A stretch of DNA of 64,000 nt from positions 122,835 through 186,834 of the forward strand of contig VMFP01000001.1 of assembly GCA_007376145.1 (NCBI GenBank), written 5' to 3'. The stretch is from Parcubacteria group bacterium Gr01-1014_38. GTDB taxonomy: Bacteria; Patescibacteriota; Andersenbacteria; UBA10190; CAIZMI01. Each line of letters begins with the position of its first letter. Positions within the stretch are counted from its first letter, which is position 1. Under the pieces are notes generated by a model that saw nothing but the letters and a program-made list of their open reading frames with translations, did no database searches and was not told where the DNA came from. Below, piece after piece: positions 32,102 through 64,000 of this stretch. The translations under genes were made by a program, and so were the position numbers.

Positions 32102-32126
32102 TCCGTTGGCTGGAGACGCGCGTTGG

Positions 32127-47537: not shown

Positions 47538-48596
47538 TCACCGCGCCACGACGAGACTCCGCCGGTACGCGGGGAGATTTTCCAGGGCCATGCCGATTCC
47601 CTGGATCACGCAGCGCAGGGGGTCGTCTGCCACCGTGCAGGGGACCATCGTGATCTTCGCGATGAGCTTGTCCATGTTGCTCAAGAGGGCGGTCCCTCCG
47701 GTGAGGACAATCCCCTTGTCAATGATGTCGGCGGCGAGTTCCGGCGGGGTTTCTTGGAGCACCTGGCGTGCCGTGTGCGTAATCGTTTCGAGTTCTTCCT
47801 GCATGGCCTCGGTGACTTTGTTCGAGGTGATGGTCACTTCCTTCGGAAGACCCGTTGCGACGTCCCGGCCGCGGATCTCGTGCGGACGATCTTCCTCGGT
47901 TGGGGTCGCAGAGCCGATCGCGATCTTGATCTCCTCCGCGGTGCGTTCGCCAATCGCCAAGCCGTACTTTTTTCGCACGTATTCAGCGATTGCAGCATCG
48001 AGCCGGACGCCGCCGACGCGCGCCGAGGCGGTCGCGACCAAGCCGCCGAGCGAGATCATCGCCGCTTCCGTGACCCCGCCACCCATGTGGACGATCATGT
48101 GGCCGGACGACTCCGCAATCGGCAGACCCGCGCCGATCGCCGCCGCCACCGGTTGCTTGACCAGGTAGACGCGTCGCGCGCCTGCGCGCATGGCGACTTC
48201 GAAGACCGCGCGGCGCTCGGTCGAGGTGATCCCTGCCGGGACCGACACCATGACTTCGGGACGGAACACGCGGAAGGTGACGCCACCGACGCGCTCCAGG
48301 AAGAGTTCCAGCATTGCTTCGGTAACGCGGAAGTCAGCGATGGCCCCTTCGCGCAATGGCTGGGAGGCCTGAATGTTCTCTGGTGTGCGCCCGAGCATCT
48401 CCTTTGCCGCTTGACCGATGGCGAGGACCCGATGGTCATCAAGGGCGAGCGCGACGACCGACGGCTCGTGGATGACGATCCCGCGACGAGGCAAGTACAC
48501 GATGGTCTTCGTGGTGCCAAGGTCAATCCCGACGCGGCGCGTCAGCATAGTTGCAGGGTACCAAGGTATTCTGCTAGAAGGAAAGTGCTCGTGCAT
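47538..48596 (-). CDS. mreB: rod-shape-determining protein MreB (possible internal start at 48548)
   Basis: GIDLGTTKT phosphate-1, actin-fold motifs, GGGVTEAAMISLGG, VLTGGTALL; 336-352 aa. Confidence 0.9.
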   Translation of the reverse strand: MHEHFPSSRIPWYPATMLTRRVGIDLGTTKTIVYLPRRGIVIHEPSVVALALDDHRVLAIGQAAKEMLGRTPENIQASQPLREGAIADFRVTEAMLELFLERVGGVTFRVFRPEVMVSVPAGITSTERRAVFEVAMRAGARRVYLVKQPVAAAIGAGLPIAESSGHMIVHMGGGVTEAAMISLGGLVATASARVGGVRLDAAIAEYVRKKYGLAIGERTAEEIKIAIGSATPTEEDRPHEIRGRDVATGLPKEVTITSNKVTEAMQEELETITHTARQVLQETPPELAADIIDKGIVLTGGTALLSNMDKLIAKITMVPCTVADDPLRCVIQGIGMALENLPAYRRSLVVAR

Positions 48597-48623
48597 CCAA
48601 CAACGCGACGCGCCTTCCGCACG

Positions 48624-50045
48624 ATGGCGTGGGTGATCTTCCTTGTGGGGTCACCCCTTCTCTTGGCCTATGCCTGGGGGTACCGCGTGTCGCTGTCGCA
48701 CCCCCGTGCATCGCTCGTTCCTGCCGGACCGACGGTTGGCGCGATGGTCATCCGCTCCATCCCGCGCGGCGCGCGTGTGCTCCTTGATGGGCGTGTGGTC
48801 GACGAGCGCACTCCCGCCGGCATCAGCAGGATTCCTGTCGGGGTGCACCTGGTACGGATTGAGAAGCAGGGGTATCGGCCGTACGAGAAGCGACTCGAGG
48901 TGTTCGGCGGACAGGTGGCCGATCTCCTTCACGTGCGGTTGATTCCCCAGACCATCGAGGAGGAAATTGTCCGCACCGGAGTATCCGGCGTGTGGATCTC
49001 GCCCGATGAACGCTGGGTGATTCTCCGGGAAGAGCCGCTGCTCACCATTCTCCCCCGGCGCGTGCTCACCACCCTCTCGCCCGAGAGAACGGTGCGCGAG
49101 GCTGATGGTCTCCAGGTCCGCCTGCCCCGCCACCGGACCGGCGAGATCGCGTTCTTCTGGGCGCCGAGTGGGGAGAGCGTGGCGGTTGGTCTGCACCGGG
49201 CGGAAGAGACCGAGCAGATGACGTTCTTCCCAGACAGTCTCGCGCTGATCGATCTCGCCGATGGCCGACTCCGGCCGATGCCGCCGCGGACCAAGCTGGT
49301 GGGATGGAGTCCCGTCGGGCCAGAGCGCGTCCTCCTCCTCACGGCGGAGGGAGACCTGCTGGGGCTTCCCGCGCAGGCCACGACGCCAGAGAAACTCGCC
49401 TCCGGCATTCTCGCAGCGGCGATTCATCCTCGCGGCATCCTCGTCCAGCGCGCGACGCAAGGTGCGAGCGAACCACCCTTTGGTTTCGTGCGCGACGGAG
49501 GAGAATTTCAACCCTTCACACCACCGTTTCCTGAACCGGCCGGGGCGCTGCAGGTTTCTCCGGAGGGAACTCTCGCGGGGGTATCGAAGGACGGAACGCT
49601 GTTCCTCTTCACTGCGGAGGATCAGGCCTGGCGAGCCGTCGCGCAGGGCGTGCGCCGCTTCGCCTGGTCTCCCGACGGTCAGAAGCTGCTCATCCAGGAA
49701 TCCGCGTTCGATGTCTCGGTGCTGAACGTGTCGGAGGATCGCAGCGTCTTAAAAAGGCTTCAGCCGGAATTTCTCCTGCGGATGTCACTCCCTCTCCGGA
49801 ATCTCCAATGGTTCCCGGACAGTCAACATCTCCTCTATTTCGATCAGGATATTCTTCGTCTCCTCGACATCGATCCCCGTGGCGGGCATCGAACCGAGGA
49901 CCTCATCTCCGTTGATCGTGGTGGTGCCCTCGCCGTCGTTTTCGAGGGCGGTGCGCTCGTCACCGTGACGGCACGCCGTTCCGTCTCCGACCGCTCAGCG
50001 GATGTCCTCCTTCGTCTCTTCCTCCGGACGCCGGACGACCGCTAA
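48624..50045 (+). CDS. membrane-anchored PEGA-domain protein (start uncertain: GTG 48591 or ATG 48624)
   Basis: TM MAWVIFLVGSPLLLAYAWGY then PEGA domain (MVIRSIPRGARVLLDGRVVDERTPAGISRIPVGVHLVRIEKQGYRPYE), long beta-rich C-terminal region with WSPDG-like repeats. The upstream 1.3 kb of the 904-aa ORF-track entry is antisense to mreB and rejected. Confidence 0.65.
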   Translation: MAWVIFLVGSPLLLAYAWGYRVSLSHPRASLVPAGPTVGAMVIRSIPRGARVLLDGRVVDERTPAGISRIPVGVHLVRIEKQGYRPYEKRLEVFGGQVADLLHVRLIPQTIEEEIVRTGVSGVWISPDERWVILREEPLLTILPRRVLTTLSPERTVREADGLQVRLPRHRTGEIAFFWAPSGESVAVGLHRAEETEQMTFFPDSLALIDLADGRLRPMPPRTKLVGWSPVGPERVLLLTAEGDLLGLPAQATTPEKLASGILAAAIHPRGILVQRATQGASEPPFGFVRDGGEFQPFTPPFPEPAGALQVSPEGTLAGVSKDGTLFLFTAEDQAWRAVAQGVRRFAWSPDGQKLLIQESAFDVSVLNVSEDRSVLKRLQPEFLLRMSLPLRNLQWFPDSQHLLYFDQDILRLLDIDPRGGHRTEDLISVDRGGALAVVFEGGALVTVTARRSVSDRSADVLLRLFLRTPDDR

Positions 50046-51298
50046 GGTTCACCGCGTTCCCGCACACCGTCGCGGGCACAGCGGTCGTAGTATTGGAGAA
50101 GCTGGTTGGCGATGGATTGCGGAGCAAACCGCTCCTTGACGTACGCGCGCGCAGCGTCGCCCATCGCCGTGGCGTCGTCCCGATTCCGGAGAAGACGAAT
50201 CAGTGCTCCCGCGAGTGCTGACGGATCGTTGGGCGGTACGAGTGCTGCCGTCTGCGACGTCGTCGTTTCTAAAACGCCGCCGAGATCCGACGCGACGAGA
50301 GGCCGAGCACGGGCTCCGGCCTCCAATGCTGCGCGCCCGAACGGTTCTTCCCAGAGGTGAGCGGACACGACGATGGCCGAACGGTCCATGAGGTCGGAAA
50401 CCTCGGCTGGTGGGACGGCGCCGTGGAACGTGACGGCATCACGGAGGCCTAAGCGATCAGCGAGCGCGCGGTACCGCGGGAGTTCTCCACTGCCGGCGAG
50501 GTGGAGGCGGAGATCAGGAAATGTCTTTTGCGCCTCCGCGACGGCCTGGAGAAGAATGTCCGTTCCCTTCGTCGTTTCCAGGCGGCCCGCCGCACAGAGG
50601 ACATTTTCCTCCGGACGGGGGACGAGCGGCGTCGTCAGCCAACGTGGATCCACGGGGTTTTGGAGGATCATGGTCTGCACCGTCGGGGGAGGACGGAGGC
50701 GCGCCTCCACGCGCCTCCGGAGGCACTGACTCGTGTAGAGGTGGTGAGGAATGCGGCGGAAGGCGCGGGTACGAAAGCCGAGATTTCCTTTGTACTGCGC
50801 CACGCGGAATGGCTTCCGCGGGAGGGAGGCTTCCACGACGCGGTGGCACCGAAAGAGGACGTTCGTCCAGAAGCAGCCGTCGCAGGAGGAGCCGTCCCAC
50901 CACATGTTGTTCGTGGTCCCGCAGATCGGTGCGTAGTCGCGGATCGTGACGATGCGGTGCGGATGGGGGAGGAACGAGAGCGACAAGGCGCTGCGGAACT
51001 CTTGCGCATGGATGACGTCGGGCTGCAGCGCGTGTCTTGGAAGCAGCGCGGCGACGGTCTGTGCCGCTGCGCGACTCACCAAGACTTCCCGAAGCGGCTT
51101 TGACCACCAGGAGAGGAGCGGGCGCGTGCGGATCACCCGGACGCCGTGGAGAACGTCGTCCCCTTCCCCCGCCGCTCCGCAGACGACGGTGACGCTCGCG
51201 CCGGTCGCCGCCAGTGCTTCCGCGATCAGCTGCGTGGAGATTTCCCCGCCGCCGAGGACATCCGGCGGGTAGCGGGCGGAGAGGAAGAGCACCCGCAT
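50042..51298 (-). CDS. GT4-family glycosyltransferase
   Basis: Start at ATG 51298 (MRVLFLSARYPPDVLGGGEIS); C-terminal EEPFGRAALEAGARARPLVASD GT4 motif. The ORF-track N-terminal extension is Arg/Pro-rich. Confidence 0.75.
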   Translation of the reverse strand: MRVLFLSARYPPDVLGGGEISTQLIAEALAATGASVTVVCGAAGEGDDVLHGVRVIRTRPLLSWWSKPLREVLVSRAAAQTVAALLPRHALQPDVIHAQEFRSALSLSFLPHPHRIVTIRDYAPICGTTNNMWWDGSSCDGCFWTNVLFRCHRVVEASLPRKPFRVAQYKGNLGFRTRAFRRIPHHLYTSQCLRRRVEARLRPPPTVQTMILQNPVDPRWLTTPLVPRPEENVLCAAGRLETTKGTDILLQAVAEAQKTFPDLRLHLAGSGELPRYRALADRLGLRDAVTFHGAVPPAEVSDLMDRSAIVVSAHLWEEPFGRAALEAGARARPLVASDLGGVLETTTSQTAALVPPNDPSALAGALIRLLRNRDDATAMGDAARAYVKERFAPQSIANQLLQYYDRCARDGVRERGEP

Positions 51299-52425
51299 CA
51301 GCCGCTCCGCGGGCTCAAGACCTTCGCGTAGACCGCCAGGGTCGCGGCGAGCATGTTCTCTCGCGTGAACTGCGCGGCACGGGCGAGTCCGCGCCGCCGG
51401 AGTTCTGCGCGGAGCGGCGCGTCGGTCAGGACCAAGGCGAGGCCTTCCGCGATTGCTTCGGTGTCTTCCGGGTTCACGAGGATCGCCGCATCGCCTACGA
51501 CTTCCGGAAGGCTGGAACGGTTCGACGTCACCACCGGCGTCCCGCACGCCATGGCTTCAAGCGGCGGGAACCCGAATCCTTCGTCGAGCGACGGGAATGC
51601 CAGCACCGTCGCTGCGTGGTACCAGAGGCGGAGCGCCGCATCGTTTGATTCCTCCACGAGACGGACGGTGCGGTCGAGGTGAAGTCGCGCAATCGTCTCA
51701 CGGAGTTCACGGCGACCGGACGCCACGCCCGCATCGCCAATCTTCACGAAGCGAACGTTCGGAACCCGTTGCCGGACGAGCGCGAGTGCTTCCAAAAGGC
51801 GACGGAGGTTCTTCCGCCGGTGCTCACTTCCTACGTAGAGAACCAGGGGAGGGTGATCGCAGAGATCTGCATCCGCAAGGAACCGCTTCCCTTCCTCGGT
51901 CTGCCAGAGCGCTCCTTGGAAGCGCAGGGATTCCGAACCCGAGGGGGGAATGACGGAGAGCCGCGCGTCCGGCACTTTATACTGTGCCCGAACATCCCGC
52001 GCGGTCGCCTCTGAATAGGTGAGAAGGTGCGCCGCATTTCTGATCCCGCGGTAGAGGATGCGCGCTACCGTTCCCCCAAAGAGCACCTGCGGGTCGCGGA
52101 GCTCGATGAGGTCCCAGACCGTGACGACGGATCGTTCAGGGGCTCTCCGTGCAAGAAACGCGAGCGTTTGGTTGGTGAAGTGCAGGATGCCCTCTGGCGG
52201 CGTGCGCAGGAGGCTTCCGGCAACGAGCCAGAACGCCGGCTTCCCGCCCGGCAGGCGCGGAACGATCCGAACGATCCTCCCGTTCTGCTCAATCGCCGAC
52301 ATCCGATGATCCAGCGTCAGGATCGTGACATCCTGTCCAGCGGCACGTAAGGCCTCCCGAAGCATTCCCACCGGCTTTCCGACGCCGGACGTTGCAGACG
52401 CGTTGGTGATGAGTGTGATCTTCAT
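51298..52425 (-). CDS. GT4-family glycosyltransferase
   Basis: Start at ATG 52425 (MKITLITNASATSGVGKPV); C-terminal LDEGFGFPPLEAMACGTPVV; stop overlaps next gene start (ATGA). Confidence 0.75.
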   Translation of the reverse strand: MKITLITNASATSGVGKPVGMLREALRAAGQDVTILTLDHRMSAIEQNGRIVRIVPRLPGGKPAFWLVAGSLLRTPPEGILHFTNQTLAFLARRAPERSVVTVWDLIELRDPQVLFGGTVARILYRGIRNAAHLLTYSEATARDVRAQYKVPDARLSVIPPSGSESLRFQGALWQTEEGKRFLADADLCDHPPLVLYVGSEHRRKNLRRLLEALALVRQRVPNVRFVKIGDAGVASGRRELRETIARLHLDRTVRLVEESNDAALRLWYHAATVLAFPSLDEGFGFPPLEAMACGTPVVTSNRSSLPEVVGDAAILVNPEDTEAIAEGLALVLTDAPLRAELRRRGLARAAQFTRENMLAATLAVYAKVLSPRSG

Positions 52426-53579
52426 GGTGCCGGCCGCTCGGGCTCTCCGGTGTGTTCGAGCACCCGTGCGTAGACCTCCAAGGTCTGGCGCGCGGTTCGC
52501 TCCCATGTGAATTGCTGAATCCAGGCTCGGCCCTGCTCGACGAGGCGCGTCCGTACGCCTTGGTCCGCGAGGAGGAGACGAAGCGCGGACGTGATTTCTT
52601 CTTCGTCCTCCGGATCCACGAGCAGCGCCGCAGGGCCGACGACCTCCGGGAGGCTCCCGCGCGCACTCACGAGGACCGGCGTCCCGCACGCCATGGCTTC
52701 AAGCGGCGGGAACCCGAATCCTTCATCCTGGCTCAAGAACGCAAAGGCATCGGCACTGCCGTACAGCGTTGGAAGATCCGCGCTCTCCACCCGACCCAGA
52801 AAGCACACGCGATCCTTCAGTCGTGGGTCACGGGCGGCAGCGACGACGCGCTCGGTTTTCCAACCCCACCGACCTGCAATGACGAGGGTATGCGGGAACT
52901 CGCCGACCACGCGTGCAAAGGCTCGGAGCAACCGGTCGACGTTCTTCCGTGGCTCAATGGTTCCGACGGTGAGCACATACGGTGTCGCACCGAGACCGAG
53001 CCGCGCCAAAAGCGCCGCGCGAGCGTCTGGTGCCGCCGGGGCAAAGGTCGGTTCGATGCCGGGGGTGGTCACGGTAATGCGGTCTGCTGGCACACCGAGC
53101 GTATCCACGATGGCCCGTTTCGATGCTTCGGAAATCGTCACGATCGCCGTGGCGTGACGTGCGGCGGCAGGCAGTTCCAGGCGCCAGTAGGTCCGCTGGG
53201 CGACCGTCTGCGTTCTTGGATGCGTGAGGGAGATCACGTCGTAGATCGTCGTGACGACCGGTGGGAACCCGCGGCGGAATGGAGTGCCGCTTGGCTTCGT
53301 CAGGTGCACGAGGCGAGGGCGCAATCTACGAATCGCGCGCGGGAGCGCCACAAGGTTCCAGTAGGGGCGCAGCCACGGCGTGGCCGGCGGTACCGCCAGA
53401 CTCGGGAAATTTCTGACGGCGGTCTGGCCCCGCTGGTGGTCACAGATAACCGTGAGCGTAAGCGGTGGGTCCAGCTGCGTAAAGCCGTCCAGCAAGCCGC
53501 GGATGTACCGAACGACTCCCCCCGCTGGCCCGGACAGTGCGCGGGCCTCGAGAGCCACCAGCGGTGGCGATGCCGTCAT
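52422..53579 (-). CDS. GT4-family glycosyltransferase
   Basis: C-terminal QDEGFGFPPLEAMACGTPVL motif nearly identical to the neighbouring GT4 (paralogs); ATGA overlaps on both sides. Confidence 0.75.
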   Translation of the reverse strand: MTASPPLVALEARALSGPAGGVVRYIRGLLDGFTQLDPPLTLTVICDHQRGQTAVRNFPSLAVPPATPWLRPYWNLVALPRAIRRLRPRLVHLTKPSGTPFRRGFPPVVTTIYDVISLTHPRTQTVAQRTYWRLELPAAARHATAIVTISEASKRAIVDTLGVPADRITVTTPGIEPTFAPAAPDARAALLARLGLGATPYVLTVGTIEPRKNVDRLLRAFARVVGEFPHTLVIAGRWGWKTERVVAAARDPRLKDRVCFLGRVESADLPTLYGSADAFAFLSQDEGFGFPPLEAMACGTPVLVSARGSLPEVVGPAALLVDPEDEEEITSALRLLLADQGVRTRLVEQGRAWIQQFTWERTARQTLEVYARVLEHTGEPERPAP

Positions 53580-54766
53580 GGGCGCTCCTGCAATTGCCCG
53601 ACGAGAATGCGGGTGGAGCGGACCGTCTTCGTGAGTCGGGCAAACAGAGCCTCATAGCGATCAGCGATGTCCCGGATGAGGAACGACTGCATGGCGTGGC
53701 GGTTCGTCTCCGCGAAACGCTTCCGAAGGTCCGCATCCGCGAGGAGCACGCGGAGCGCTGACGCGAGTTGGTCCGATCGCTGCGGAGGAGTGAACAGCGC
53801 GTTCTCCCCGGCGCGGAGGATGTCTGTCTGGCCGCCTTGGTCCGTACAGACAATGGGAAGCCCCGCGTACATCGCTTCGAGGAACACGATGCCGAATCCT
53901 TCATGGAGCGAAGCGGAAACAAAGAGGTCGGCGGCTCGAAGGAGCTGCCATTTCCGGTCTTCCGTCACTGCGCCTTCGAACGTGACCTGCGGCCGCACGC
54001 CAAGGCGCTCCGCCGTACCTTCGAGTGGGTGCAGAAGCGGACCATCCCCCATGACATGCAGGTGCACATCCTTTCTTTTCAGGAGCGCGAGAGCCTCGAG
54101 AAGGTCCTTGTGGGCCTTTCGGGGTATGAGACGCCCAACCGTGACGAGGCGCCACGGTGCACCGTGACTCGCGGTGACGGGAGGGAGCACAGCCGGCGGA
54201 ACCAAACCGAGGGGGATGACGGCGAGGTTGTTCGGCGCGCGGTGGTACAAGATTGCGCGCCGTTTCGTATCCTCCGAAATCGCCGTGACCGCGTCCGCGT
54301 GACGGATCACCCACCGTACCACGGCCCGAACCACCGGATTCCGGTGGGCAGCGATTCCCGCCGTGGGATTGGGATCAAAGATATCCGCACCGATGAGCGT
54401 GAGGACCACCGGAATTCGGCGCAGGCGCCCGAGGAGGACTGCGGGGAGTCCCGAAGGAACGGCGAAAAGGGCGTGAATGAGGTCCGGGCGAGTCTTGTTG
54501 GTCGCACGCAGGCCAGCGAGGAGCGCGGACGGAACGAACGTCGCCATGGAACGGAGCGTCGCCACCGGCATCTGACATCGCCCCCACACCGGAACGCGAA
54601 TGATCCGGACGCCGTTGACGACTTCCGCCTTGGGGAGGCCACGGAAGTGCGTCGTGAGGATCGTGACCTCGTTCCGCGCGGCGAATGCCTCCGCGAGATC
54701 CCGATGGGCCACTCCTCCTCCGCCCCCGAGAGGCGGGTATTCGTAATTGATGAGCAGCAGCCTCAT
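53576..54766 (-). CDS. GT4-family glycosyltransferase
   Basis: MRLLLINYEYPPLGGGGGVA N-terminus, C-terminal LHEGFGIVFLEAMYAGLPIV motif. Confidence 0.75.
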   Translation of the reverse strand: MRLLLINYEYPPLGGGGGVAHRDLAEAFAARNEVTILTTHFRGLPKAEVVNGVRIIRVPVWGRCQMPVATLRSMATFVPSALLAGLRATNKTRPDLIHALFAVPSGLPAVLLGRLRRIPVVLTLIGADIFDPNPTAGIAAHRNPVVRAVVRWVIRHADAVTAISEDTKRRAILYHRAPNNLAVIPLGLVPPAVLPPVTASHGAPWRLVTVGRLIPRKAHKDLLEALALLKRKDVHLHVMGDGPLLHPLEGTAERLGVRPQVTFEGAVTEDRKWQLLRAADLFVSASLHEGFGIVFLEAMYAGLPIVCTDQGGQTDILRAGENALFTPPQRSDQLASALRVLLADADLRKRFAETNRHAMQSFLIRDIADRYEALFARLTKTVRSTRILVGQLQERP

Positions 54767-56823: not shown

Positions 56824-56825
56824 GG

Positions 56826-58901
56826 TTACTCCATCACTGGTCGGAGTCCAAGGAGCCCGCGAGAGCGATGCGTGGTAAGGAGGTCGCGCGGAGAGACCGT
56901 TCGGTTTCCAACGCCAAAGTGAGGAGCCGATTTCTCCTGCGGGGCAGCGCGGAGTGTTGGCGCCTCACCAGGGCTCGTTCCTTCGGTGGTGAGCAGCGTG
57001 ATGAATGTTCCCGGCTCTTGAACCAGCAGCGGCTCAAGAGAGAAACGCACCCACTGGTTATCGTCTTCGCCGCGGATCGGGAGACGATTTGCGCGGACAT
57101 CGGGTCCCTCCACGGTCTGGCGGAGACGGAGGACGAACGTTCCCATATCCGCGCGTCCGGAATAGGTTGCGACGAGTGTCTCCACGCCACGGAGCGTTCC
57201 GGCGGAGACGGGAAGCTCCGCCACCACCACTGATTCCTGCGTTAGCTCGCCGAGAATACCCGTATAGGCCGGCTGGTGGTATACCCATGCGTAGGGCAGC
57301 CCGTTCACCGTCGCGGTGAAGACGGGCGTCCGTCGGCGGTAGTATTCGTCGATGAAATCGTTCGCGGGGTGATCGGGAGACCGGCCAAACATGTTGCGGT
57401 AGAGCACGACGTATCCAACCCGGAGTTGATCTCGGGCACTCAAATGAAAGACTGGCCGGTGGACGAGCGCCTTGAGCTCTTCTGGGTACCAGGAGGCCAC
57501 GGCGATCTTCCCGCCGTCATCGAGTTGATTGAGGTACCGCGCAACCTGATCGAGTCCCTCCCCCCAGCCGAGCTCCTGACTGAAGCTTGGTGGAAACAAG
57601 CGGTTATAGTACGCGAGCGCATACGGGCCAAGGAAGAGAAGTTCTCCCGCCAGCGGCAGGACGGCAAGGAGGAACACCGTTTTTGCCGCTCGGGCTTCCG
57701 TCCACTGCGGACGAACACGGCTGACGAGCGCCGCCAGCCCGATCACGCCGAGGAGGTTCACCACGGGGAACACGGGAAGCAGATAGCGGTCGCCCTTCTT
57801 GGCCCCAAACGTCATGGCCGCGGTGAAGAGCACGACGAACGCGAGAAGGATCCAAAGCGTACGGCGGGATGTCCCGCTCAGCGTCGCGAGCTTTGGCATG
57901 CTTACCGGCAGAAGCAGGAGAAGGGCGGCCAACCCGATCAGTGAAGGGATGGTCGTGCGTGCGAGCAGCGTGCTGGGGTAATGCCAGGGCTTAATGCTGT
58001 ACGCATCGGCCATGTGGTGCGGGGTAGAGAAAGCCGCCGAAAGGTCACGCTGAACAATTTTGACGTTTCCCACCGGATCCGGTACCCAGAGCAATCCCGG
58101 CCACAAGACCAGGGTCGTCGCCACGATGATCACCAGCCACTGCCCGAGAAGGCGAAGGCGGACTCGCCCCTCTTCCCTCCCCCAGGCCTGCCGATCCGCA
58201 AACAGGCTGAGTGTTGCCATGGGCAGCAGAATCAACCCAGGGATCTTCGAAAGGATCGCGAGTGCGCCAAAGATTCCCGACCAGACGAGCGCGGCGGAGG
58301 GCACGGTGTGCGGATGTTCCTCTCTCCCCTGCATTGCGGCGAGAAAGAGGATGAGCGAGAGTGCGGTAAAGCCCGCGAGGAGCGCGTCGACATGCACCAC
58401 CTTGCTGTAGCCGATCAGGAACGGATCGAGCGCGATCACGAGTGCCGCTGCACGTGCCACCCAAGGTCTCGTCAGGCGCCGCAGAGCAAGGAACAGCGCG
58501 GCGACCAGTACGCTGTTGAGGAGCGCGAACGTCACCTGGGTCCCCTGGATGAAGAGTTGGAGCGACTCTGCGGTGAACGGGATATTTTTTAGGCGTGCAA
58601 TGATCCGCACGCTGATTCCCACCAGCCACAGGGTGGGAATGCCCGGATGCGTCGTCTGCAAGGTCTCATTGAAGTGAAACTCCTGGACCGCTTGGAGGAA
58701 ATTCACGCCTCGCCCCATCCAGCTTTTCTCGTCTGCGGTCAGGAACAGGCCAATACCGATGAGGCGTGGCGCCAGGGCAATGAGGAAGAGTACCCCGGTC
58801 TCACCAAGGAGTTTCCGACGTTCTGGAGACTGCAGCCATCGCCGCATTCGCACCGAGTGTACCACCGGTGAGGCCTCCCTGCCCTTTGAGGCGCGGGACA
58901 T
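56826..58901 (-). CDS. GT-C glycosyltransferase, ArnT/PMT-like (GT39/GT83), paralog 1
   Basis: First-loop DE motif LTADEKSWMGRG, about 11 TM helices, C-terminal soluble domain (...DNQWVRFSLEPL...). Start taken at ATG 58901; alternative GTG at 58919. Confidence 0.7.
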   Translation of the reverse strand: MSRASKGREASPVVHSVRMRRWLQSPERRKLLGETGVLFLIALAPRLIGIGLFLTADEKSWMGRGVNFLQAVQEFHFNETLQTTHPGIPTLWLVGISVRIIARLKNIPFTAESLQLFIQGTQVTFALLNSVLVAALFLALRRLTRPWVARAAALVIALDPFLIGYSKVVHVDALLAGFTALSLILFLAAMQGREEHPHTVPSAALVWSGIFGALAILSKIPGLILLPMATLSLFADRQAWGREEGRVRLRLLGQWLVIIVATTLVLWPGLLWVPDPVGNVKIVQRDLSAAFSTPHHMADAYSIKPWHYPSTLLARTTIPSLIGLAALLLLLPVSMPKLATLSGTSRRTLWILLAFVVLFTAAMTFGAKKGDRYLLPVFPVVNLLGVIGLAALVSRVRPQWTEARAAKTVFLLAVLPLAGELLFLGPYALAYYNRLFPPSFSQELGWGEGLDQVARYLNQLDDGGKIAVASWYPEELKALVHRPVFHLSARDQLRVGYVVLYRNMFGRSPDHPANDFIDEYYRRRTPVFTATVNGLPYAWVYHQPAYTGILGELTQESVVVAELPVSAGTLRGVETLVATYSGRADMGTFVLRLRQTVEGPDVRANRLPIRGEDDNQWVRFSLEPLLVQEPGTFITLLTTEGTSPGEAPTLRAAPQEKSAPHFGVGNRTVSPRDLLTTHRSRGLLGLRPVME

Positions 58902-59663
58902 CCTGCATGGCTCTACCACGCGAAAGACCGATTGTCAAACTCTTGACACGCGCTACGGACGGTACCATACTCGCTTCCACTGGTGTTCTTTGTCATAAAG
59001 TCGTGCCGGTCAGACGGTGACGAAACTCCGAGGAGACGCGCAAGCGTCAAGAGAGTCCCGGAGGTGACCGTTCAAGCCGGTCGAATGCGCGCAGAAGGGT
59101 AGGAATAACATTTCACCTTCCAGGTGTTGCCCTCGTCGCACACAGCAGGACTCGATGAGGGAAATTCCCCACGCCTGAAGGAGGTAGGTGGAACAGTCCA
59201 AACTGCGTACACGCTTGTCTCTTCCGGCCGGAAACGACAAGCGGCGCTACGCGGGGGAGTAGCCGTCGAACGGAGAATACTGCGTGTATGCAGGAAGTTC
59301 AGTCTCAAAAGGGCTCGCGGACTCTCGTGGCATATTCGTGAACCTCATGAATATGTCTAGTGGCATATTCATATAAACCTCATGAATATGACGCGGAAGG
59401 AGTACTGCCCTGGACGGACTTCTTGATATACCGCATGAAGGGAATATTCCCCTCGACGCTTGCGAAGAGAGGAGGAACCTGCCCCTTCTAAGACTAAACC
59501 TATTCTTCTGCGCGATTTGTCCTCTTTCATTGTCGTTCCCAGGCACCATTGTCGTTCCCAGACATCAGGGCATTTGCTCTCTTTATGTCCGTCTGGCCGG
59601 GGCATTTGCTCTCTTTTGTCTGGGAGCACCCCCGCTCGTCCCCATCGGCGAGCGGGATTTTTC

Positions 59664-61649
59664 TTATTCCGAGTGCGAGGCGTCTCCTTGGTAGACGAGC
59701 GCGTATGCGAGATCCCCTTCTGCGAGAGACGCCGCCCGCTTCTCTCCCGACCGGAGCGGTCGTCGGAGCACCACCAGGCGTCCCGGGAGGATGTCGTTCG
59801 GTTGATACCGAACGGTGACGGCATTGCCGGGCTCCCCGGAGGGCGAAGTGAGCGCAACGTAGTAGGTCACCCCCTTAGAGTTCGGGAGCGGTTCAAAGCG
59901 AATTTCTTTCCAGGCGTTGTCCTCCAAACGGCTCACGCCTATCCGGACCGTGCGCAGATCGGCACCGTCGGGATTCTCGCGGACGTGGAGGAGAAGCTCC
60001 CCCCGATTGCTCCGAGACGAGAACGTCGCAAAGACCAGCCGTACGCCGCTCAATCCATCCGATTCCGCGACGACTGTTTGGCCGACCTCGACCGTTGTCG
60101 GGGCATTCCCGGTACCGCGCTCCGGCGCGCCGGCACGGACAATTTCTCCTACGTGCTTTGGAAAGCGATCCACAGAATCTCGCGCGTAGATCCAGGCCAT
60201 CTCGAGACCGACAACGCGGATTACCGCTACCGGTTCCACGTTTGCAAATTCCTCGAGGACCCTCGTCGGACCGGAATCCGCCGGTCGCCCCCGCATATTT
60301 CGATAGGTCACCACGTAATCCACGCGCGCATCATCGCGGCTGCTTAAGCTCATGGTTGTCCCGCGGAAAAACTCCCGGAAGATGATGGGATACCAGGTCG
60401 CCACCTGGAGTTCTGGAGCAAGGGGATGGGCATTGAGTACTGCCGCAGCCCGCTCGAGTCCTTCGCCCCACCCCGCTTGGGTGGGCTCTTCCTTCGGACT
60501 GAAGGGACTGACGTACGCCAGGGCATAGGGACTGAGCTGAAGGTTGAGAACGGCAAGAACGCAGATGGTGCCGGCGGCGAGAAGTTTTCCGAAGCGATCT
60601 CGGCGGATGAGTTCACCGAGGCTGACCCCCGCGAAGACATCGAGCACGAGAAGTGCCGGAAGAAGGTAGCGATCGGCGCGCTTCTCTACGAGATTCACGA
60701 AGAGGAAAAACCCTCCGAAGAAGAGGAGGAATACCAATGCCTCCCGGCGCCGGTGGGCAGCGCGAAGACATGCGAGCGCTCCCAGTGCGGCGAACAGGAG
60801 AGTGACCGGCGTCGTGCGGGCAAGAAGCGCACGGGCGTAGAAGAGATTGTCGCGCGTCCGGACTTCCGCCGATTCACCGAAGTGTGACAGCGTAACGACG
60901 GACTGGACGTCGCGAGCAGCGTATCGGACATTCGGGAGAACGTTCAGCCACATGGAGGGCCACAGAATCAGGAAGGTCGCGGTGGTAACACCGACCCAGG
61001 TCGCCGTATCGCGAATCCATCGAGCCCGCATGTCTGGAACGAGCAGAAACACCCCGGCGGCGAAGGGGACGAGGAAGACCGCCGGGAGTTTCGTGAGCAG
61101 CGCGAGCCCCCCGAGAAATCCGGAAAGAACAAGAATCCGGCGTGCGCCTTGGCGGACGTACCAGAGGGCGGTAAGGACCGAGAGGAGCATGAGAATCGCG
61201 AGGAGGGCATCCACATGCGCGAGCTGGGAATACCCAACGAAAAACGGATTCAGGGTAAGGAGCACGCCAGCACCAAGACCACTGCGGACACCCCAGAGTC
61301 GTGCCACGAGGGCAGCAGCCATCCCGGTCCCAAGGGATACCGCGATGGCGATAGGAAGCTTCCCCGCGGAACGGAAGGAGCCGACGGTCGGGCTTTCCAT
61401 GCGCTCTCCCGTCAGCCATTCTCGCGCTTCAATGCCCGCACCGATGAGAAGCATCGCGGTGACGCCGGGATGGGTTCCCTGGAAGGTGCCGCCGGGATCC
61501 CCACGGCGGAGCGCAGTCGTGAACGACTGCGCGCGGAACATCCACTGCGGTTCGTCCGCGGTGAGGATCGCGCCGAGACCCTGCAGTCGAACGAGCAGCG
61601 CGAGCGTCGCCGTGATAAGTCCTACCATGACGAGCGGACGGAATGCCAT
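59664..61649 (-). CDS. GT-C glycosyltransferase, ArnT/PMT-like, paralog 2
   Basis: ILTADEPQWMFRAQSF DE motif, multi-TM core, C-terminal domain ...LRTVRIGVSRLEDNAWKEIRFEPLPNSKGVTYYVALTSPSGEPGNAVTVRY. Confidence 0.7.
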   Translation of the reverse strand: MAFRPLVMVGLITATLALLVRLQGLGAILTADEPQWMFRAQSFTTALRRGDPGGTFQGTHPGVTAMLLIGAGIEAREWLTGERMESPTVGSFRSAGKLPIAIAVSLGTGMAAALVARLWGVRSGLGAGVLLTLNPFFVGYSQLAHVDALLAILMLLSVLTALWYVRQGARRILVLSGFLGGLALLTKLPAVFLVPFAAGVFLLVPDMRARWIRDTATWVGVTTATFLILWPSMWLNVLPNVRYAARDVQSVVTLSHFGESAEVRTRDNLFYARALLARTTPVTLLFAALGALACLRAAHRRREALVFLLFFGGFFLFVNLVEKRADRYLLPALLVLDVFAGVSLGELIRRDRFGKLLAAGTICVLAVLNLQLSPYALAYVSPFSPKEEPTQAGWGEGLERAAAVLNAHPLAPELQVATWYPIIFREFFRGTTMSLSSRDDARVDYVVTYRNMRGRPADSGPTRVLEEFANVEPVAVIRVVGLEMAWIYARDSVDRFPKHVGEIVRAGAPERGTGNAPTTVEVGQTVVAESDGLSGVRLVFATFSSRSNRGELLLHVRENPDGADLRTVRIGVSRLEDNAWKEIRFEPLPNSKGVTYYVALTSPSGEPGNAVTVRYQPNDILPGRLVVLRRPLRSGEKRAASLAEGDLAYALVYQGDASHSE

Positions 61650-61660
61650 CGGGGTCTTGG

Positions 61661-63445
61661 CTACTCCCGCCCACCGCGCGACTCGACTGAGCTCGTCGAA
61701 GTCCGGCGGAGAATCGTAATGGGGTTCCCGAGATTTTCGATTTCGGCGATGGGTTCGAACTCCGCGTTCACGAACTGTTCAATCTCGGGGTACTCCCGGA
61801 AGTAGGAAAAGGCGGTCAGCTGCTCATGGACCACCCACCGAATGTCCGAGCGGACGGCGGCGACCATCGCTTCTACGGGCGCCATGTAGATGTTGCGAAC
61901 CTGCGGCTCGATATAGCCGTAGGCGTAGTGGGTCGGGTGGGCGACGTCAAACAAGACCCGGTGCCCGGAGAGTACGGGAAGAGCGACGGCAGCCGTGAGG
62001 ATGGGCTCTTCCTTTGGAACCTGGCGTCGGAGAACCGCCGCGGCTTCCTCCAGCGACGAACGGTCGAATGTTCCGGTATGCGCGAAGACGTATCCGGAAC
62101 GAGCCGAGGCGTACGCGCCCCACGCCACGAGTACTCCGAGGAGAACCAGGACGGGAGCGCGGCGCCGGTACTCGGCGGCAAGCCAGGCGCCTCCGAGCGC
62201 AGCGAGGAGGGTGAGCGGCGGGAGAAACTCCGCGAGGTAGTTCGCAGTAAACTTAATCCACGAGGCGTAGAGGACCGTGGTTCCCAAGAGCCAGAGGAGC
62301 GGAACACCGACAGCAGGCAGGATTGTCTTCCGTAATGCCGGAACCTCCTCCTCTGGGCTCGGGGCCTGTTCTCGTGAGGAGACAGCAAGGATGGCGATGC
62401 TTGCGCTCATCACGAGCCAGAACGGCCAGAGGGCAAACGCGAAGTGCTCCGGACGCTCGTACGCTTGAAGGAAGCGACCAGAGAACCAGACCGCGGCCAG
62501 CGGGATGAGCCATCCCACGCGCGACCAGCGTCGGCCCCGCGCGGTGGAACGGAGAATCTGCTCCATGCTTGCGCCAAGACCGACGAGCGCAAGGAACAAC
62601 ACTGGCAGTCCCTCACGGAAGATCGGGAGCACTCCCTGAATAAGGGCGCGTCGGCGCTCTTCGGCAGTCGCGGTCGTGTCTGGATCGATTGCCGCGACGT
62701 CGACCCCAAGGAAGTACCGGACACCGGGCGTTCCGTACCAGTGCTGGATTTCCGCCGTGAGTCCGCCAAAGGCAATGAGAAATCCCACGAGCGTCCAGCC
62801 GACGCGTTGGAGGCGTGCGCGCCACGGGAGCGTCGAGAAGAGCAGAATCCCCAGAGCGGGGAGCGCGGCCGCGGCGGATGTCTTTCGTGCGCCGAACGCG
62901 AGTGCCAAGAGGACGCCGGCAAGGACGAGGAGCACCCACCCAAGGATCCTCCGCCGCGCTCGGTTCTCTTGAGGATTCACCAGACTGTGCGCGAACAACG
63001 CCAACCCGCCGGCGAGGAGCAAGAGTTGGAGCGGTTGCGCATGAAGGTAGATGCTGAAAATCACCGGAGCAGCAGGAAGGAGCCACAGACCGGCGATGCG
63101 CAGCGATGGGAGGCCTTTTCCATGAGCATTGCGGCCCAGCGCGAGCAGAGGAAGAAGCGTGAGAAGACTCGCGACGATGCTCACGAGCCGACTCGTGAGC
63201 ATCGTCGGTTCGGGCTTGAGACGGAGAAAGGCGGCGACGACCTGAACCACCGTCGGGGTTTTTAAGATTCCATCTCCTCCCGGGAGCCGTCCGTGAGAGA
63301 ACGTCCACGCGTCGTAGAGCATGCTCCCCTCGTCGTTGGTGACGGGTAAACGTTCGGCATACAGGAGACGGAAGAAGAACCCGCCGAGGAGAAGCACCGC
63401 AAGCATGAAAAGGAGCACCGGCCGGCGGACCCGAGGGCGGATCAT
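61661..63445 (-). CDS. GT-C glycosyltransferase, ArnT/PMT-like, paralog 3 (internal ATG 63445 with AGGAG RBS; reading frame stays open upstream to the window edge)
   Basis: PVTNDEGSMLYDAW DE motif and multi-TM core after MIRPRVRRPVLLFML; GTAGGAGCCCCCCCG precedes ATG 63445. Confidence 0.6.
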   Translation of the reverse strand: MIRPRVRRPVLLFMLAVLLLGGFFFRLLYAERLPVTNDEGSMLYDAWTFSHGRLPGGDGILKTPTVVQVVAAFLRLKPEPTMLTSRLVSIVASLLTLLPLLALGRNAHGKGLPSLRIAGLWLLPAAPVIFSIYLHAQPLQLLLLAGGLALFAHSLVNPQENRARRRILGWVLLVLAGVLLALAFGARKTSAAAALPALGILLFSTLPWRARLQRVGWTLVGFLIAFGGLTAEIQHWYGTPGVRYFLGVDVAAIDPDTTATAEERRRALIQGVLPIFREGLPVLFLALVGLGASMEQILRSTARGRRWSRVGWLIPLAAVWFSGRFLQAYERPEHFAFALWPFWLVMSASIAILAVSSREQAPSPEEEVPALRKTILPAVGVPLLWLLGTTVLYASWIKFTANYLAEFLPPLTLLAALGGAWLAAEYRRRAPVLVLLGVLVAWGAYASARSGYVFAHTGTFDRSSLEEAAAVLRRQVPKEEPILTAAVALPVLSGHRVLFDVAHPTHYAYGYIEPQVRNIYMAPVEAMVAAVRSDIRWVVHEQLTAFSYFREYPEIEQFVNAEFEPIAEIENLGNPITILRRTSTSSVESRGGRE

Positions 63446-64000
63446 CGGGGGGGCTCCTACGGCTGCCAGCGCGAGAGCGACTGCCGCTCCGCCGGTCAGC
63501 GAGAAGACGGTGACGCGCCGCGTTTCTTTGCGCATGAATCGCACGGCGTCGAGGACTGCGAGACGCACGCGTTCCCCGAGCGAGATGCGATGCACGACCG
63601 CAAAGGCGAGATCGGCGCTCCGCATCTCCGCTTGCTGAACGGCCTCGGGCGCATTCCGCTCTCCGTGGAATACGTAGAGGCTGGAGGGTCCGCCTTTCAC
63701 GTATGGATTTCCTGCACTGAAATCAACGGTGATCGCGTCTCCCGGTCGAGACTGCGGAGAGCGGAGCGACGCGTAATAGGTCTGCCCCGAGGAGTCCAGG
63801 ACTGGCGCAAACGTGAACGTGTACCATTCGTGGTCCCGGAACTGGCGGGCCGGAACGCGAGCCGTTCGGAGTGCGGTGGGAGCATCGGGACTGCGGCGCA
63901 GCTCAAACACGACTTCCCCCGTTGCTCGCCGGTTGCTGTACGTCGCAATCTGGAACGCGACGCCGCGTAAGGATGGGCGCAGCGATTCAAACGTTTGGCC
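63446..64000 (-). CDS. C-terminal domain of an upstream GT-C paralog (paralog 4, N-terminus beyond window) continuing in frame, with no stop, into paralog 3
   Basis: Own translation to the window edge: GQTFESLRPSLRGVAFQIATYSNRRATGEV-VFELRR...LRTARVPARQFRDHEWYTFTFAPVLDSSGQTYYASLRSPQSRPGDAITVDF, which aligns with the C-terminal domains of paralogs 1 and 2. Confidence 0.5.

What the first reader, a model, noticed from the sequence alone, without database searches (positions are those of the whole stretch)
48591..64000. Large cell-envelope glycosylation locus next to a PEGA-domain surface protein and mreB
About 14 kb on one strand encode, in order: an in-frame-fused GT-C4-GT-C3 pair, GT-C2, GT-C1 (after a 740-bp gap), a 12-TM membrane protein, four GT4 paralogs, and a fifth GT4 (50042-51298). 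Genes from the 12-TM protein onward are joined by ATGA start/stop overlaps, implying translational coupling. Multiple PMT/ArnT-like GT-C paralogs with the first-loop DE motif are typical of protein O-mannosyltransferases or lipid/glycan transferases acting outside the membrane. The divergently encoded PEGA-domain membrane protein (PEGA is common in S-layer/surface proteins) is an obvious candidate substrate. This looks like a dedicated surface-glycoprotein or glycolipid modification system; its specificity is unknown. A WecA-like initiating transferase plus a processive GT2 lie at 31-34 kb.
Basis: partly seen in the sequence, partly recalled or inferred. Interest (0 to 1): 0.6.

Follow-up and report, generated by a model that had tools for sequence, protein, structure and literature searches.

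The report
CPR envelope glycan assembly locus
A tiny-genome candidate-phyla-radiation bacterium (Parcubacteria/Andersenbacteria lineage) carries a conserved locus of about 25 kb. It combines four membrane-embedded GT-C sugar transferases, five cytoplasmic GT4 transferases and a lipid-sugar donor synthase, and it most likely builds a cell-envelope glycan partly outside the membrane. It is a new variant of a known scheme, not a new kind of system.

Summary
The gene array is real and conserved, but several details in the finding are wrong.

**Corrections to the observation**
- There is no GT-C4–GT-C3 fusion. The source contig shows one 838-aa protein: a TM anchor, a jelly-roll domain homologous to the C-terminal domains of GT-C1 and GT-C2, and then a GT-C core.
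- Four GT4 genes follow it, not five.
- The PEGA gene is convergent with the locus and divergent from mreB.

**What holds up**
- The first-loop DE motif is invariant in GT-C1, GT-C2 and GT-C3.
- An ArnC/GtrB-type polyprenyl-phosphate sugar synthase heads the locus, just outside the window.
- The core module, the 686-aa GT-C plus GT4 genes (four or three recovered) with a polyprenyl-phosphate-sugar-synthase-like GT2 next to it in most loci, persists across distant CPR genomes.

**The PEGA protein**
- It is a membrane-anchored β-propeller with no Ser/Thr-rich tract.
- It pairs with mreB even where this locus is absent.

**Verdict**
This is most likely a two-compartment assembly line for an envelope glycan or lipoglycan, resembling mycobacterial LM/LAM synthesis and three-component glycosylation. 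Protein glycosylation is not excluded. The sugars, the acceptor and the flippase remain unknown.

The parts
61661..64000 (-). GT-C3: the 3' 2,340 bp of an 838-aa gene that starts 177 bp beyond the window end. Architecture: TM anchor, jelly-roll domain, two extra TM helices, then a GT-C core with an invariant TNDEG loop.
   Evidence: Gene call on the source contig and its translation. AF2 pLDDT 83. Foldseek hits to AglB, STT3, Emb, PglB, ALG9 and Pmt. Invariant T280-N281-D282-E283 in 14 orthologues. N-terminal domain vs GT-C2 C-terminus E 2e-21.
59664..61649 (-). GT-C2: 661 aa, PMT_2-type GT-C with a C-terminal jelly-roll domain.
   Evidence: PMT_2 E 1e-12. D32-E33 invariant in 6 orthologues. 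31% identical to GT-C1. Absent from L010, L011, L012 and L022.
58848..59663 (.). 816-bp non-coding spacer between GT-C2 and GT-C1. It probably separates two transcription units.
   Evidence: GC 55%. No homologue in related loci, no convincing ORF and no Rfam hit. A G+C-rich hairpin lies at 59631-59656, directly after the GT-C2 stop. The spacer is only ~40-100 bp in L004, L007 and L008.
56826..58847 (-). GT-C1: 673 aa, PMT_2/PMT-type GT-C with a C-terminal jelly-roll domain.
   Evidence: PMT_2 E 2e-7 and PMT E 9e-6. D39-E40-K41 invariant in 10 orthologues.
54763..56823 (-). GT-C(686): a GT-C-fold enzyme of a family not covered by the Pfam or NCBIfam models, with a C-terminal CBM35/CBM6-like beta-sandwich.
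53576..54766 (-). GT4b: 396 aa, GT-B-fold cytoplasmic glycosyltransferase of the retaining family GT4.
   Evidence: Glycos_transf_1 E 2e-39. ATGA overlap with the 686-aa gene. Kept next to the 686-aa gene in every sufficiently long related locus.
52422..53579 (-). GT4c: 385 aa.
   Evidence: Glycos_transf_1 E 1e-35. PDB sequence matches to MshA 6.5e-20 and PimB' 6e-19. ATGA overlap.
51298..52425 (-). GT4d: 375 aa, 37% identical to GT4c. No GT4d match in several relatives.
   Evidence: No GT4d match in L005, L007, L010, L011 and L012.
50042..51298 (-). GT4e: 418 aa, the last gene of the array.
   Evidence: Glycos_transf_1 E 2e-30. 1-nt TGATG overlap with GT4d. Its stop overlaps the PEGA stop by 4 bp.
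48624..50045 (+). Neighbour gene: TM-anchored PEGA domain plus WD40/PD40-type beta-propeller protein (473 aa). Convergent with the locus and divergent from mreB.
   Evidence: PEGA E 4e-12. Orthologue profile vs PDB WD40 protein 2ymu E 1.5e-17. Synteny.
47538..48548 (-). mreB (336 aa), separated from the PEGA gene by a 75-bp divergent spacer.
   Evidence: MreB_Mbl. 90% identical in L003.
46383..47531 (-). GT4f (382 aa), part of the conserved mreB-GT4f-secA block.
31097..33866 (-). WecA-like polyprenyl-phosphate HexNAc-1-P transferase (31097-32101) and a 579-aa GT2 (32127-33866). A possible initiating step, but 17 kb away and not seen within the sequence held for related loci.
   Evidence: PF00953 E 2e-27 and Glyco_trans_2_3 E 1e-6. 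TIGR02380 wecA 2.6e-22 versus mraY 5e-11, both below cut-off.

Best explanation
The locus is a two-compartment assembly line for a cell-envelope glycoconjugate of a CPR (Parcubacteria/Andersenbacteria-lineage) bacterium.

**Inferred steps**
1. In the cytoplasm, family-GT4 transferases (GT4a-e) use nucleotide sugars to build a lipid-linked oligosaccharide core. In this genome rmlD, gmhA, gmhB and an rfaE-domain-II gene lie just upstream, which hints at rhamnose and heptose.
2. An ArnC/GtrB-type GT2 at the head of the locus loads a monosaccharide onto polyprenyl phosphate.
3. After flipping by a transporter that was not found here, four GT-C-fold enzymes (GT-C3, GT-C2, GT-C1 and the 686-aa GT-C) transfer sugars from the lipid-phosphate donor to the growing glycan on the outer face of the membrane. 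Each enzyme uses its conserved first-loop Asp/Glu. Each carries a beta-sandwich or CBM-like domain that probably holds the glycan acceptor.

**Shown here:** the folds, the motifs, the donor-synthase homology and the synteny.

**Inferred:** the order of steps, a glycan (lipoglycan or wall polysaccharide) rather than a protein acceptor, and the identity of the sugars.
For: **Four GT-C enzymes**
- GT-C1 and GT-C2 hit PMT_2.

**Conserved first-loop acidic residues**
- Invariant DE in GT-C1, GT-C2 and GT-C3, and invariant D50 in the 686-aa family.
- The positive-inside pattern places these loops outside the membrane (read from the sequence).

**Donor synthase**
- The locus GT2 matches ArnC at 5.7e-42 and GtrB at 6e-31 over its full length, and has two C-terminal TM helices.
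- In distant loci (L013, L017, L019, L020, L021) a GT2 with similarity to the locus synthase sits divergently beside the 686-aa GT-C. The one checked against solved structures (L017) best matches Dol-P-Man synthase and ArnC.

**Glycan-acceptor hints**
- The 686-aa C-terminal domain resembles CBM35/CBM6.
- The jelly-roll domain shared by GT-C1, GT-C2 and GT-C3 also exists as a stand-alone gene next to a DUF2142 membrane protein in an O-antigen-like Wzm/Wzt locus.
- The literature reports CBMs on glycan-acting GT-Cs (GT136, EmbA-C, AftD) (PMC11127046).

**Conservation**
- The full locus order is kept in at least 10 relatives down to ~30% identity.
- The core module of the 686-aa gene plus three or four GT4 genes is kept in more distant CPR genomes.
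- Translational coupling by ATGA and TGATG overlaps.
Against: - No flippase (Wzx, ABC, GtrA, MATE or SMR) was found in the 64-kb window or in the 10 kb upstream.
- No initiating transferase lies inside the conserved locus. The WecA-like gene is 17 kb away.
- No ligase or anchoring enzyme (such as an LCP protein) was seen.
- The acceptor type rests on analogy, because beta-sandwich domains are not proof of glycan binding.
- The GT4 matches to PimB', MshA and BshA are generic.
- The nucleotide-sugar genes were not recovered in the flanks available for relatives.
- There are no biochemical or expression data.
Confidence: 0.55

Rival explanations
1. This is a protein O-glycosylation system of the PMT or streptococcal Pgf type. 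The GT2 makes polyprenyl-P-sugar, and the PMT_2-type GT-Cs glycosylate extracytoplasmic proteins, possibly including the neighbouring PEGA/beta-propeller protein.
For: - PMT_2 and PMT Pfam hits and the loop-1 DE motif.
- NCBIfam lists PgfS (2e-44) among the hits of the locus GT2.
- The PEGA gene is adjacent in all close and mid-distance relatives.
- In a distant lineage (L027, L033, L034) a non-orthologous PMT_2 GT-C is again convergent with the PEGA/propeller gene.
- A PD40-type propeller gene also follows the stand-alone jelly-roll/DUF2142 pair in L039.
Against: - The PEGA orthologues have no Ser/Thr-rich disordered tract. S+T is 11-15% overall and at most 20-37% in any 30-aa window. Known Pgf substrates are Ser/Thr-rich IDRs (PMC11092751).
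- PEGA is convergent with the locus, and it pairs with mreB where the locus is absent, as in L029.
- The core module occurs without PEGA.
- No MIR or PMT_4TMC domain is present, and GT-C2 has no sequence match to solved PMTs.
- Five GT4 genes are not needed for single-sugar O-glycosylation.
Confidence: 0.2
2. The 686-aa GT-C is an oligosaccharyltransferase-like enzyme. The four translationally coupled GT4s build an oligosaccharide on polyprenyl diphosphate, as in the pgl/agl logic. The 686-aa enzyme then transfers it en bloc to a protein or wall acceptor, and GT-C1, GT-C2 and GT-C3 decorate it afterwards.
For: - The 686-aa gene is tightly linked to the GT4 genes across CPR.
- A WecA-like initiator is present in the genome.
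- GT4b has weak PglJ and PglH hits.
Against: - None of the four GT-Cs has a WWDxG motif.
- A polyprenyl-P-monosaccharide-synthase-like GT2 is the recurrent neighbour of the 686-aa gene in distant loci, which argues for a monosaccharide donor.
- No Wzx- or PglK-type flippase was found.
Confidence: 0.12
3. The array is not one pathway. It is several independent glycosylation systems that merely cluster in a streamlined genome, for example a GT-C(686)/GT4 module plus separate PMT_2-type modifiers.
For: - The 686-aa gene and its GT4 genes travel alone in distant genomes.
- GT-C2 is absent from L010, L011, L012 and L022, and no GT4d match is found in several relatives.
- An 816-bp non-conserved spacer with a hairpin splits the array.
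Against: - The order GT2-GT4a-epimerase-GT-C3-(GT-C2)-GT-C1-686-GT4s is kept down to ~30% identity.
- There is only one polyprenyl-P-sugar synthase for four GT-Cs in the locus.
- GT-C1 and the 686-aa gene are 2 nt apart.
Confidence: 0.1

Closest known systems
Mycobacterial/corynebacterial PIM-LM-LAM and arabinogalactan pathways: PimA/PimB' (GT4), Ppm1 (GT2), and the GT-C enzymes PimE, MptA/B/C, EmbA-C and AftA-D
   Same: - The logic is the same: cytoplasmic GT4 steps, a polyprenyl-P-sugar synthase, then several extracytoplasmic GT-C enzymes.
- Some of those GT-Cs carry CBM domains, as here.
- GT4c matches PimB' at 6e-19.
   Different: - There is no detectable sequence homology to the mycobacterial GT-Cs.
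- The host is a CPR bacterium, not an actinobacterium.
- The lipid anchor and the sugars are unknown.
- The genes here form one compact locus, whereas in mycobacteria they are dispersed (own knowledge).
Three-component extracytoplasmic glycosylation systems: GtrA/GtrB/Gtr*, CsbB/GtcA/YfhO, GacI-L, and the GT136 system (PMC11127046, PMC5836110)
   Same: - A GtrB/ArnC-type synthase sits in the locus with GT-C transferases.
- A CBM-like domain on the GT-C is also described for GT136 (PMC11127046).
   Different: - No GtrA-, MATE- or SMR-type flippase was found nearby.
- There are four GT-Cs per synthase instead of one.
- Five GT4s are embedded, so this looks like core synthesis plus decoration rather than decoration alone.
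Protein O-mannosyltransferases (PMT, GT39) and the streptococcal Pgf O-glycosylation system (PMC11092751)
   Same: - Loop-1 DE motif and PMT_2/PMT Pfam hits.
- A PgfS-like GT2.
   Different: - No MIR or PMT_4TMC domain.
- Jelly-roll or CBM-like domains are present instead.
- The neighbouring candidate substrate has no Ser/Thr-rich IDR.
STT3/PglB/AglB oligosaccharyltransferases with pgl-type GT4 genes
   Same: - A GT-C next to several GT4 genes.
   Different: - The WWDxG motif is absent.
- There is no sequence-level homology.
- The recurrent partner is a monosaccharide-donor-synthase-like GT2.

Membership tests
GT-C fold glycosyltransferase superfamily | Multi-pass membrane core with the GT-C fold | tested here: met
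   [not shown]
GT-C fold glycosyltransferase superfamily | Conserved acidic residue in the first extracytoplasmic loop | tested here: met
   DE is invariant in GT-C1 (10 sequences), GT-C2 (6) and GT-C3 (14). D50 of GGDP is invariant in 20 sequences of the 686-aa family.
GT-C fold glycosyltransferase superfamily | Uses a polyprenyl-phosphate-linked sugar donor | not testable with these tools
   The only support is indirect: an ArnC/GtrB-type synthase lies in the locus.
Protein O-mannosyltransferase (PMT, GT39) | Match to the PMT model (PF02366) above the gathering score | tested here: inconclusive
   GT-C1 scores 25.9 bits against a cut-off of 22.7. GT-C2 scores 18.8 bits, below the cut-off. 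GT-C3 and the 686-aa protein have no hit. GT-C2 has no phmmer hit to any solved PMT.
Protein O-mannosyltransferase (PMT, GT39) | Accessory MIR (eukaryotic) or PMT_4TMC domain | tested here: not met
   Pfam finds neither domain. The accessory domains here are jelly-roll or CBM-like.
Protein O-mannosyltransferase (PMT, GT39) | Ser/Thr of secreted proteins as the acceptor | not testable with these tools
   The neighbouring PEGA protein lacks a Ser/Thr-rich tract. This is indirect evidence only.
STT3/PglB/AglB oligosaccharyltransferase (GT66) | WWDxG motif in the extracytoplasmic domain | tested here: not met
   No WWD or WxDxG motif in any of the four GT-Cs.
Three-component (GtrA/GtrB/Gtr*) glycosylation system | GtrB/ArnC-type polyprenyl-phosphate glycosyltransferase encoded with the GT-C | tested here: met
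   The 342-aa GT2 matches ArnC at 5.7e-42 and GtrB (sll0501) at 6e-31 over residues 3-299, and has two C-terminal TM helices. It is syntenic in L004, L005, L008, L010 and L011.
Three-component (GtrA/GtrB/Gtr*) glycosylation system | Dedicated small flippase (GtrA, GtcA, MATE or SMR type) in the locus | tested here: not met
   No such Pfam family appears among the called genes of the window or of the 10 kb upstream. One could lie elsewhere in the genome.
Mycobacterial-type lipoglycan/arabinogalactan GT-C machinery | GT-C enzymes with carbohydrate-binding modules acting on a glycan chain | tested here: inconclusive
   The fold match to AftD and the CBM35-like tail fit. Glycan binding was not tested, and there is no sequence homology.
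ArnT (GT83) lipid A modification | Lipid A acceptor and the arn operon context (ArnA, ArnB, ArnD) | tested here: not met
   The GT2 is ArnC-like, but no ArnA, ArnB or ArnD-type genes are in the locus. CPR bacteria are generally thought to lack an outer membrane (own knowledge, not tested here).

The most novel reading that the evidence does not exclude
The 686-aa GT-C, its coupled GT4 genes and the polyprenyl-P-sugar-synthase-like GT2 beside it form a CPR-wide, previously unrecognised pathway. Under this reading it makes the main envelope lipoglycan or secondary wall polymer of these episymbiotic bacteria, a functional analogue of LTA or LM. The family of this GT-C has more than 2,000 representative clusters and is matched by no Pfam model. 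In the Andersenbacteria lineage the pathway would be spatially coupled to MreB-directed wall growth through the conserved membrane-anchored PEGA/beta-propeller protein encoded between the locus and mreB.
Probability: 0.15. Interest if true: 0.7.

Novelty: new variant of a known kind. Interest (0 to 1): 0.4.

Why it matters
- CPR/Patescibacteria have very small genomes and depend on hosts, and their envelope chemistry is almost unknown (own knowledge).
- A conserved locus of about 25 kb with four extracytoplasmic GT-C enzymes is a large investment for such a genome. It is a concrete candidate for the surface glycan that mediates envelope integrity or host attachment.
- The work also defines a large GT-C family that the Pfam and NCBIfam models do not cover. 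It has 2,203 representative clusters at E<=1e-10.
- It identifies a mobile jelly-roll accessory module that can sit at either end of a GT-C or stand alone.
- None of this changes the known principles of GT-C glycosylation.

Tried and rejected
- **Rfam on 46-64 kb:** no RNA family.
- **The 816-bp spacer:** no conserved ORF, no similarity to related loci, and no remnant of the 202-aa gene that fills the same gap in L005. The hairpin at ~59212-59243 is not significant, z -1.8.
- **Sequence searches of GT-C2 and of the 686-aa and 838-aa family profiles against PDB:** no hits at E<=1.
- **hhalign of the 686-aa family against the GT-C3 family:** not significant, so they are not recognisable paralogues.
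- **Pfam on sampled distant members of the 686-aa family:** nothing, apart from sub-threshold DUF2079 and DUF6044 hits.
- **Domain-only homology search with the jelly-roll:** one hit only, because the word index limits short queries.
- **Literature searches for CPR plus GT-C, PEGA plus MreB, and Parcubacteria plus mannosyltransferase:** nothing relevant.
- **An interim conclusion I dropped:** I first concluded that the distant mreB-PEGA pairs lacked any glycosylation gene, based on tblastn. Pfam then showed a non-orthologous PMT_2 GT-C convergent with PEGA in L027, L033 and L034, so I softened the claim.
- **GC3-based gene calling:** not discriminating at 62% GC.

Full report
**Origin of the sequence**

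The window is part of a 245.5-kb metagenomic contig, ENA ERZ27284378 k139_493458. Two of its proteins are deposited as hypothetical proteins G01um101438_199 and _202 of 'Parcubacteria group bacterium Gr01-1014_38'. All 13 genome-collection loci that encode a relative of the 686-aa protein come from MAGs whose taxon labels are CPR/Patescibacteria (Andersenbacteria, or Candidatus Saccharibacteria), plus two labelled only 'bacterium'.

**Anatomy, minus strand**

| Gene | Window coordinates | Size |
|---|---|---|
| GT-C3 | 61661 to the window end | 838 aa; the gene starts 177 bp beyond the window |
| GT-C2 | 59664-61649 | 661 aa |
| Spacer | 58848-59663 | 816 bp, non-coding |
| GT-C1 | 56826-58847 | 673 aa |
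| 686-aa membrane protein | 54763-56823 | 686 aa |
| GT4b | 53576-54766 | 396 aa |
| GT4c | 52422-53579 | 385 aa |
| GT4d | 51298-52425 | 375 aa |
| GT4e | 50042-51298 | 418 aa |

The junctions are as follows:
- GT-C3 to GT-C2: an 11-nt gap.
- GT-C1 to the 686-aa gene: a 2-nt gap.
- 686/GT4b, GT4b/GT4c and GT4c/GT4d: ATGA overlaps.
- GT4d/GT4e: a TGATG overlap.

The PEGA gene (48624-50045, + strand) is convergent with GT4e, and their stop codons overlap by 4 bp. It is divergent from mreB (47538-48548) across a 75-bp spacer.

On the source contig, the region upstream of the window holds, in order:
- a 370-aa dehydratase/epimerase
- rmlD
- gmhA
- gmhB
- an IS481 transposase
- an rfaE-domain-II adenylyltransferase
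- a 342-aa GT2
- GT4a
- a 331-aa NAD-dependent epimerase/dehydratase, directly before GT-C3

**Corrections to the observation**

*The 'GT-C4-GT-C3 fusion'.* The reading frame is indeed open to the window edge, but the gene starts 177 bp further on. It encodes a TM anchor and then a ~165-aa all-beta domain. That domain is 33% identical to the C-terminal domain of GT-C2 (E 2e-21) and also matches GT-C1 (E 2e-14).

The topology of GT-C3 can be read from the sequence. After the outside domain come two further TM helices joined by an Arg-rich loop, MIRPRVRRP. These helices bring the chain back so that the invariant TNDEG loop is again outside.

The same TM/jelly-roll/helix/TM module exists as a stand-alone 236-aa protein, P0190. 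It is encoded 6 bp after a DUF2142 membrane protein in an O-antigen-like locus. That locus holds Wzy_C, Bac_transf, Alg13/14-like genes, a GT2, a GT4, and Wzm/Wzt with a Wzt_C domain.

*The '12-TM membrane protein'.* This protein has no Pfam or NCBIfam hit. It folds confidently (pLDDT 90) into a GT-C enzyme:

| Method | Match | Score |
|---|---|---|
| Foldseek | AftD | 1.6e-8 |
| Foldseek | PglB, STT3, Emb, ArnT | further hits (E 3.7e-7 to 1.4e-4) |

Its family keeps an invariant GGDPxQTxWR directly after TM1.

*The other counts.* Four GT4 genes follow the 686-aa gene, not five. A fifth (GT4a) lies upstream of the window and a sixth (GT4f) lies beyond mreB.

**The GT-C enzymes**

- GT-C1 and GT-C2 are 31% identical paralogues and hit PMT_2 above the cut-off.
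- DE is invariant in all orthologues recovered, as are HVDA, KxP and DRY motifs.
- None of the four has a WWDxG motif.
- None has a sequence-level match in the PDB.
- The 686-aa family is not recognisably related to the GT-C3 family.
- The 686-aa family is large. It has 6,640 representative clusters at E<=1e-3 and 2,203 at E<=1e-10.
- Sampled members carry no Pfam domain above threshold. Where they are named, they are 'hypothetical protein' of Patescibacteria or Kerfeldbacteria.

**The donor side**

The 342-aa GT2 matches solved ArnC (5.7e-42) and GtrB (6e-31) over its whole length, and it has the two C-terminal TM helices of that family. NCBIfam lists ArnC and PgfS as its best hits, both below cut-off.

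In distant loci (L013, L017, L019, L020, L021) a GT2 with similarity to this synthase sits divergently next to the 686-aa gene. For the L017 copy (~225 aa), the best solved relatives are Dol-P-Man synthase and ArnC. This recurrent pairing argues that the GT-Cs use polyprenyl-monophosphate monosaccharide donors.

**Conservation**

- The order GT2-GT4a-epimerase-GT-C3-(GT-C2)-GT-C1-686-GT4b-GT4c-(GT4d)-GT4e-PEGA-mreB-(x)-GT4f-secA is kept, as far as each contig extends, in L003/L009, L004, L005, L007, L008, L010, L011, L012, L022, L023 and L026. In these loci the 686-aa protein falls to 29-30% identity and PEGA to 27-28%.
- GT-C2 is absent from L010, L011, L012 and L022, and GT4d is not recovered in several relatives.
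- The core module of the 686-aa gene with GT4b-d, and usually GT4e, is kept in more distant CPR genomes with otherwise different neighbours. These are L006 and L013-L020. No PEGA or mreB hit was found there.

**The PEGA protein**

It is a TM anchor, a PEGA domain and a WD40/PD40-type beta-propeller. The orthologue profile matches the WD40 protein 2ymu at E 1.5e-17. It has no Ser/Thr-rich region.

A scan of metagenomes with its family found the divergent mreB-PEGA pair in lineages where MreB is only 35-56% identical and this locus is absent. These are L027, L029 and L033-L036.

The picture is mixed, however:
- In L027, L033 and L034 the gene convergent with PEGA is a 442-444-aa PMT_2 GT-C that is not orthologous to GT-C1 or GT-C2.
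- In L039 a PD40-type propeller gene follows the DUF2142/jelly-roll pair.
- In L029 the downstream neighbour is an unrelated soluble protein.

The firm statement is that mreB is the constant partner of PEGA. A looser association between extracytoplasmic propeller proteins and GT-C genes recurs. It could reflect substrate, scaffold or chance in genomes that are rich in GT-C genes.

**Mechanism**

The best-supported reading is a two-compartment pathway that follows known principles, namely three-component glycosylation (PMC11127046, PMC5836110) and mycobacterial LM/LAM/AG synthesis (own knowledge).
1. GT4 enzymes build a lipid-linked core in the cytoplasm.
2. The ArnC/GtrB-type GT2 charges polyprenyl phosphate with a sugar.
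3. Four GT-Cs, each with a beta-sandwich domain, elongate or branch the glycan outside the membrane.

CBMs on glycan-acting GT-Cs (GT136, Emb, AftD) are documented (PMC11127046). This is why I favour a glycan acceptor over a protein acceptor.

Several pieces are missing:
- No flippase, ligase or in-locus initiator was found in about 74 kb.
- The WecA-like gene and the 579-aa GT2 at 31-34 kb are plausible contributors, but they were not seen within the sequence held for related loci.
- The sugars cannot be assigned. The rhamnose and heptose genes upstream and a GT9 heptosyltransferase in L006 are only hints.

**Novelty and verdict**

The fold, the chemistry and the pathway logic are all known. 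Three things are new:
- This conserved CPR locus with four GT-Cs.
- A large GT-C family that the Pfam and NCBIfam models do not cover.
- A jelly-roll module that occurs at the C-terminus, at the N-terminus or as a separate gene.

I rate it a new variant of a known kind, of moderate interest. No literature on it was found.

Noticed in passing
window 47538-50045; also L027, L029 and L033-L036: A divergent gene pair, mreB and a TM-anchored PEGA plus beta-propeller protein, is conserved across CPR lineages in which MreB is only 35-56% identical. This holds whether or not the glycosylation locus is present. No mreC or mreD was seen next to mreB in the window. The propeller protein might therefore be an MreB-associated envelope component, but that is speculation.
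   Followed up: partly
L039 6613-9694 and L040 5742-8811: The N-terminal module of GT-C3 (TM, jelly-roll, helix, TM) occurs as a stand-alone 236-aa gene 6 bp downstream of a DUF2142 membrane protein. The locus is O-antigen-like, with Wzm/Wzt, and a PD40/Tricorn-type beta-propeller gene is convergent right after the pair.
   Followed up: partly
window 58848-59663: The 816-bp spacer between GT-C2 and GT-C1 has lower GC (55%, dipping to 47-50%). It has no ORF, no RNA family and no similarity to related loci. In relatives the same gap is ~40-100 bp, ~630 bp, or holds an unrelated 202-aa gene (L005). A G+C-rich hairpin (59631-59656) follows the GT-C2 stop.
   Followed up: partly
L001 2455-3513 (outside the window, ~4 kb beyond its 64000 end): An IS481-family transposase is inserted between gmhB and the rfaE-domain-II gene of the heptose-nucleotide gene set. 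A second rve-type transposase lies inside the window at about 18.5-19.6 kb.
   Followed up: no
window 46383-47531: A sixth GT4 (GT4f) sits between mreB and secA. The mreB-GT4f-secA block is conserved in L003, L007, L010, L011, L022, L023 and L026, sometimes with an extra GT4-like fragment in between.
   Followed up: no
window ~16785-17462 (+): A 225-aa CDP-alcohol phosphatidyltransferase (PF01066) lies here. This enzyme family includes phosphatidylinositol and phosphatidylglycerol-phosphate synthases, so it could matter if the glycan has a phospholipid anchor.
   Followed up: no
window 37778-42427 (-): Several sizeable ORFs (625, 430 and 146 aa) have no Pfam or NCBIfam hit. They lie next to a PIN-domain gene, between secA and a UvrD/PD-(D/E)XK helicase-nuclease.
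   Followed up: no
L006 16889-17977: In the most distant locus that has the 686-aa gene plus four GT4 genes, a GT9 heptosyltransferase, DegT aminotransferase, methyltransferases and two further PMT_2 GT-Cs surround the core module.
   Followed up: no
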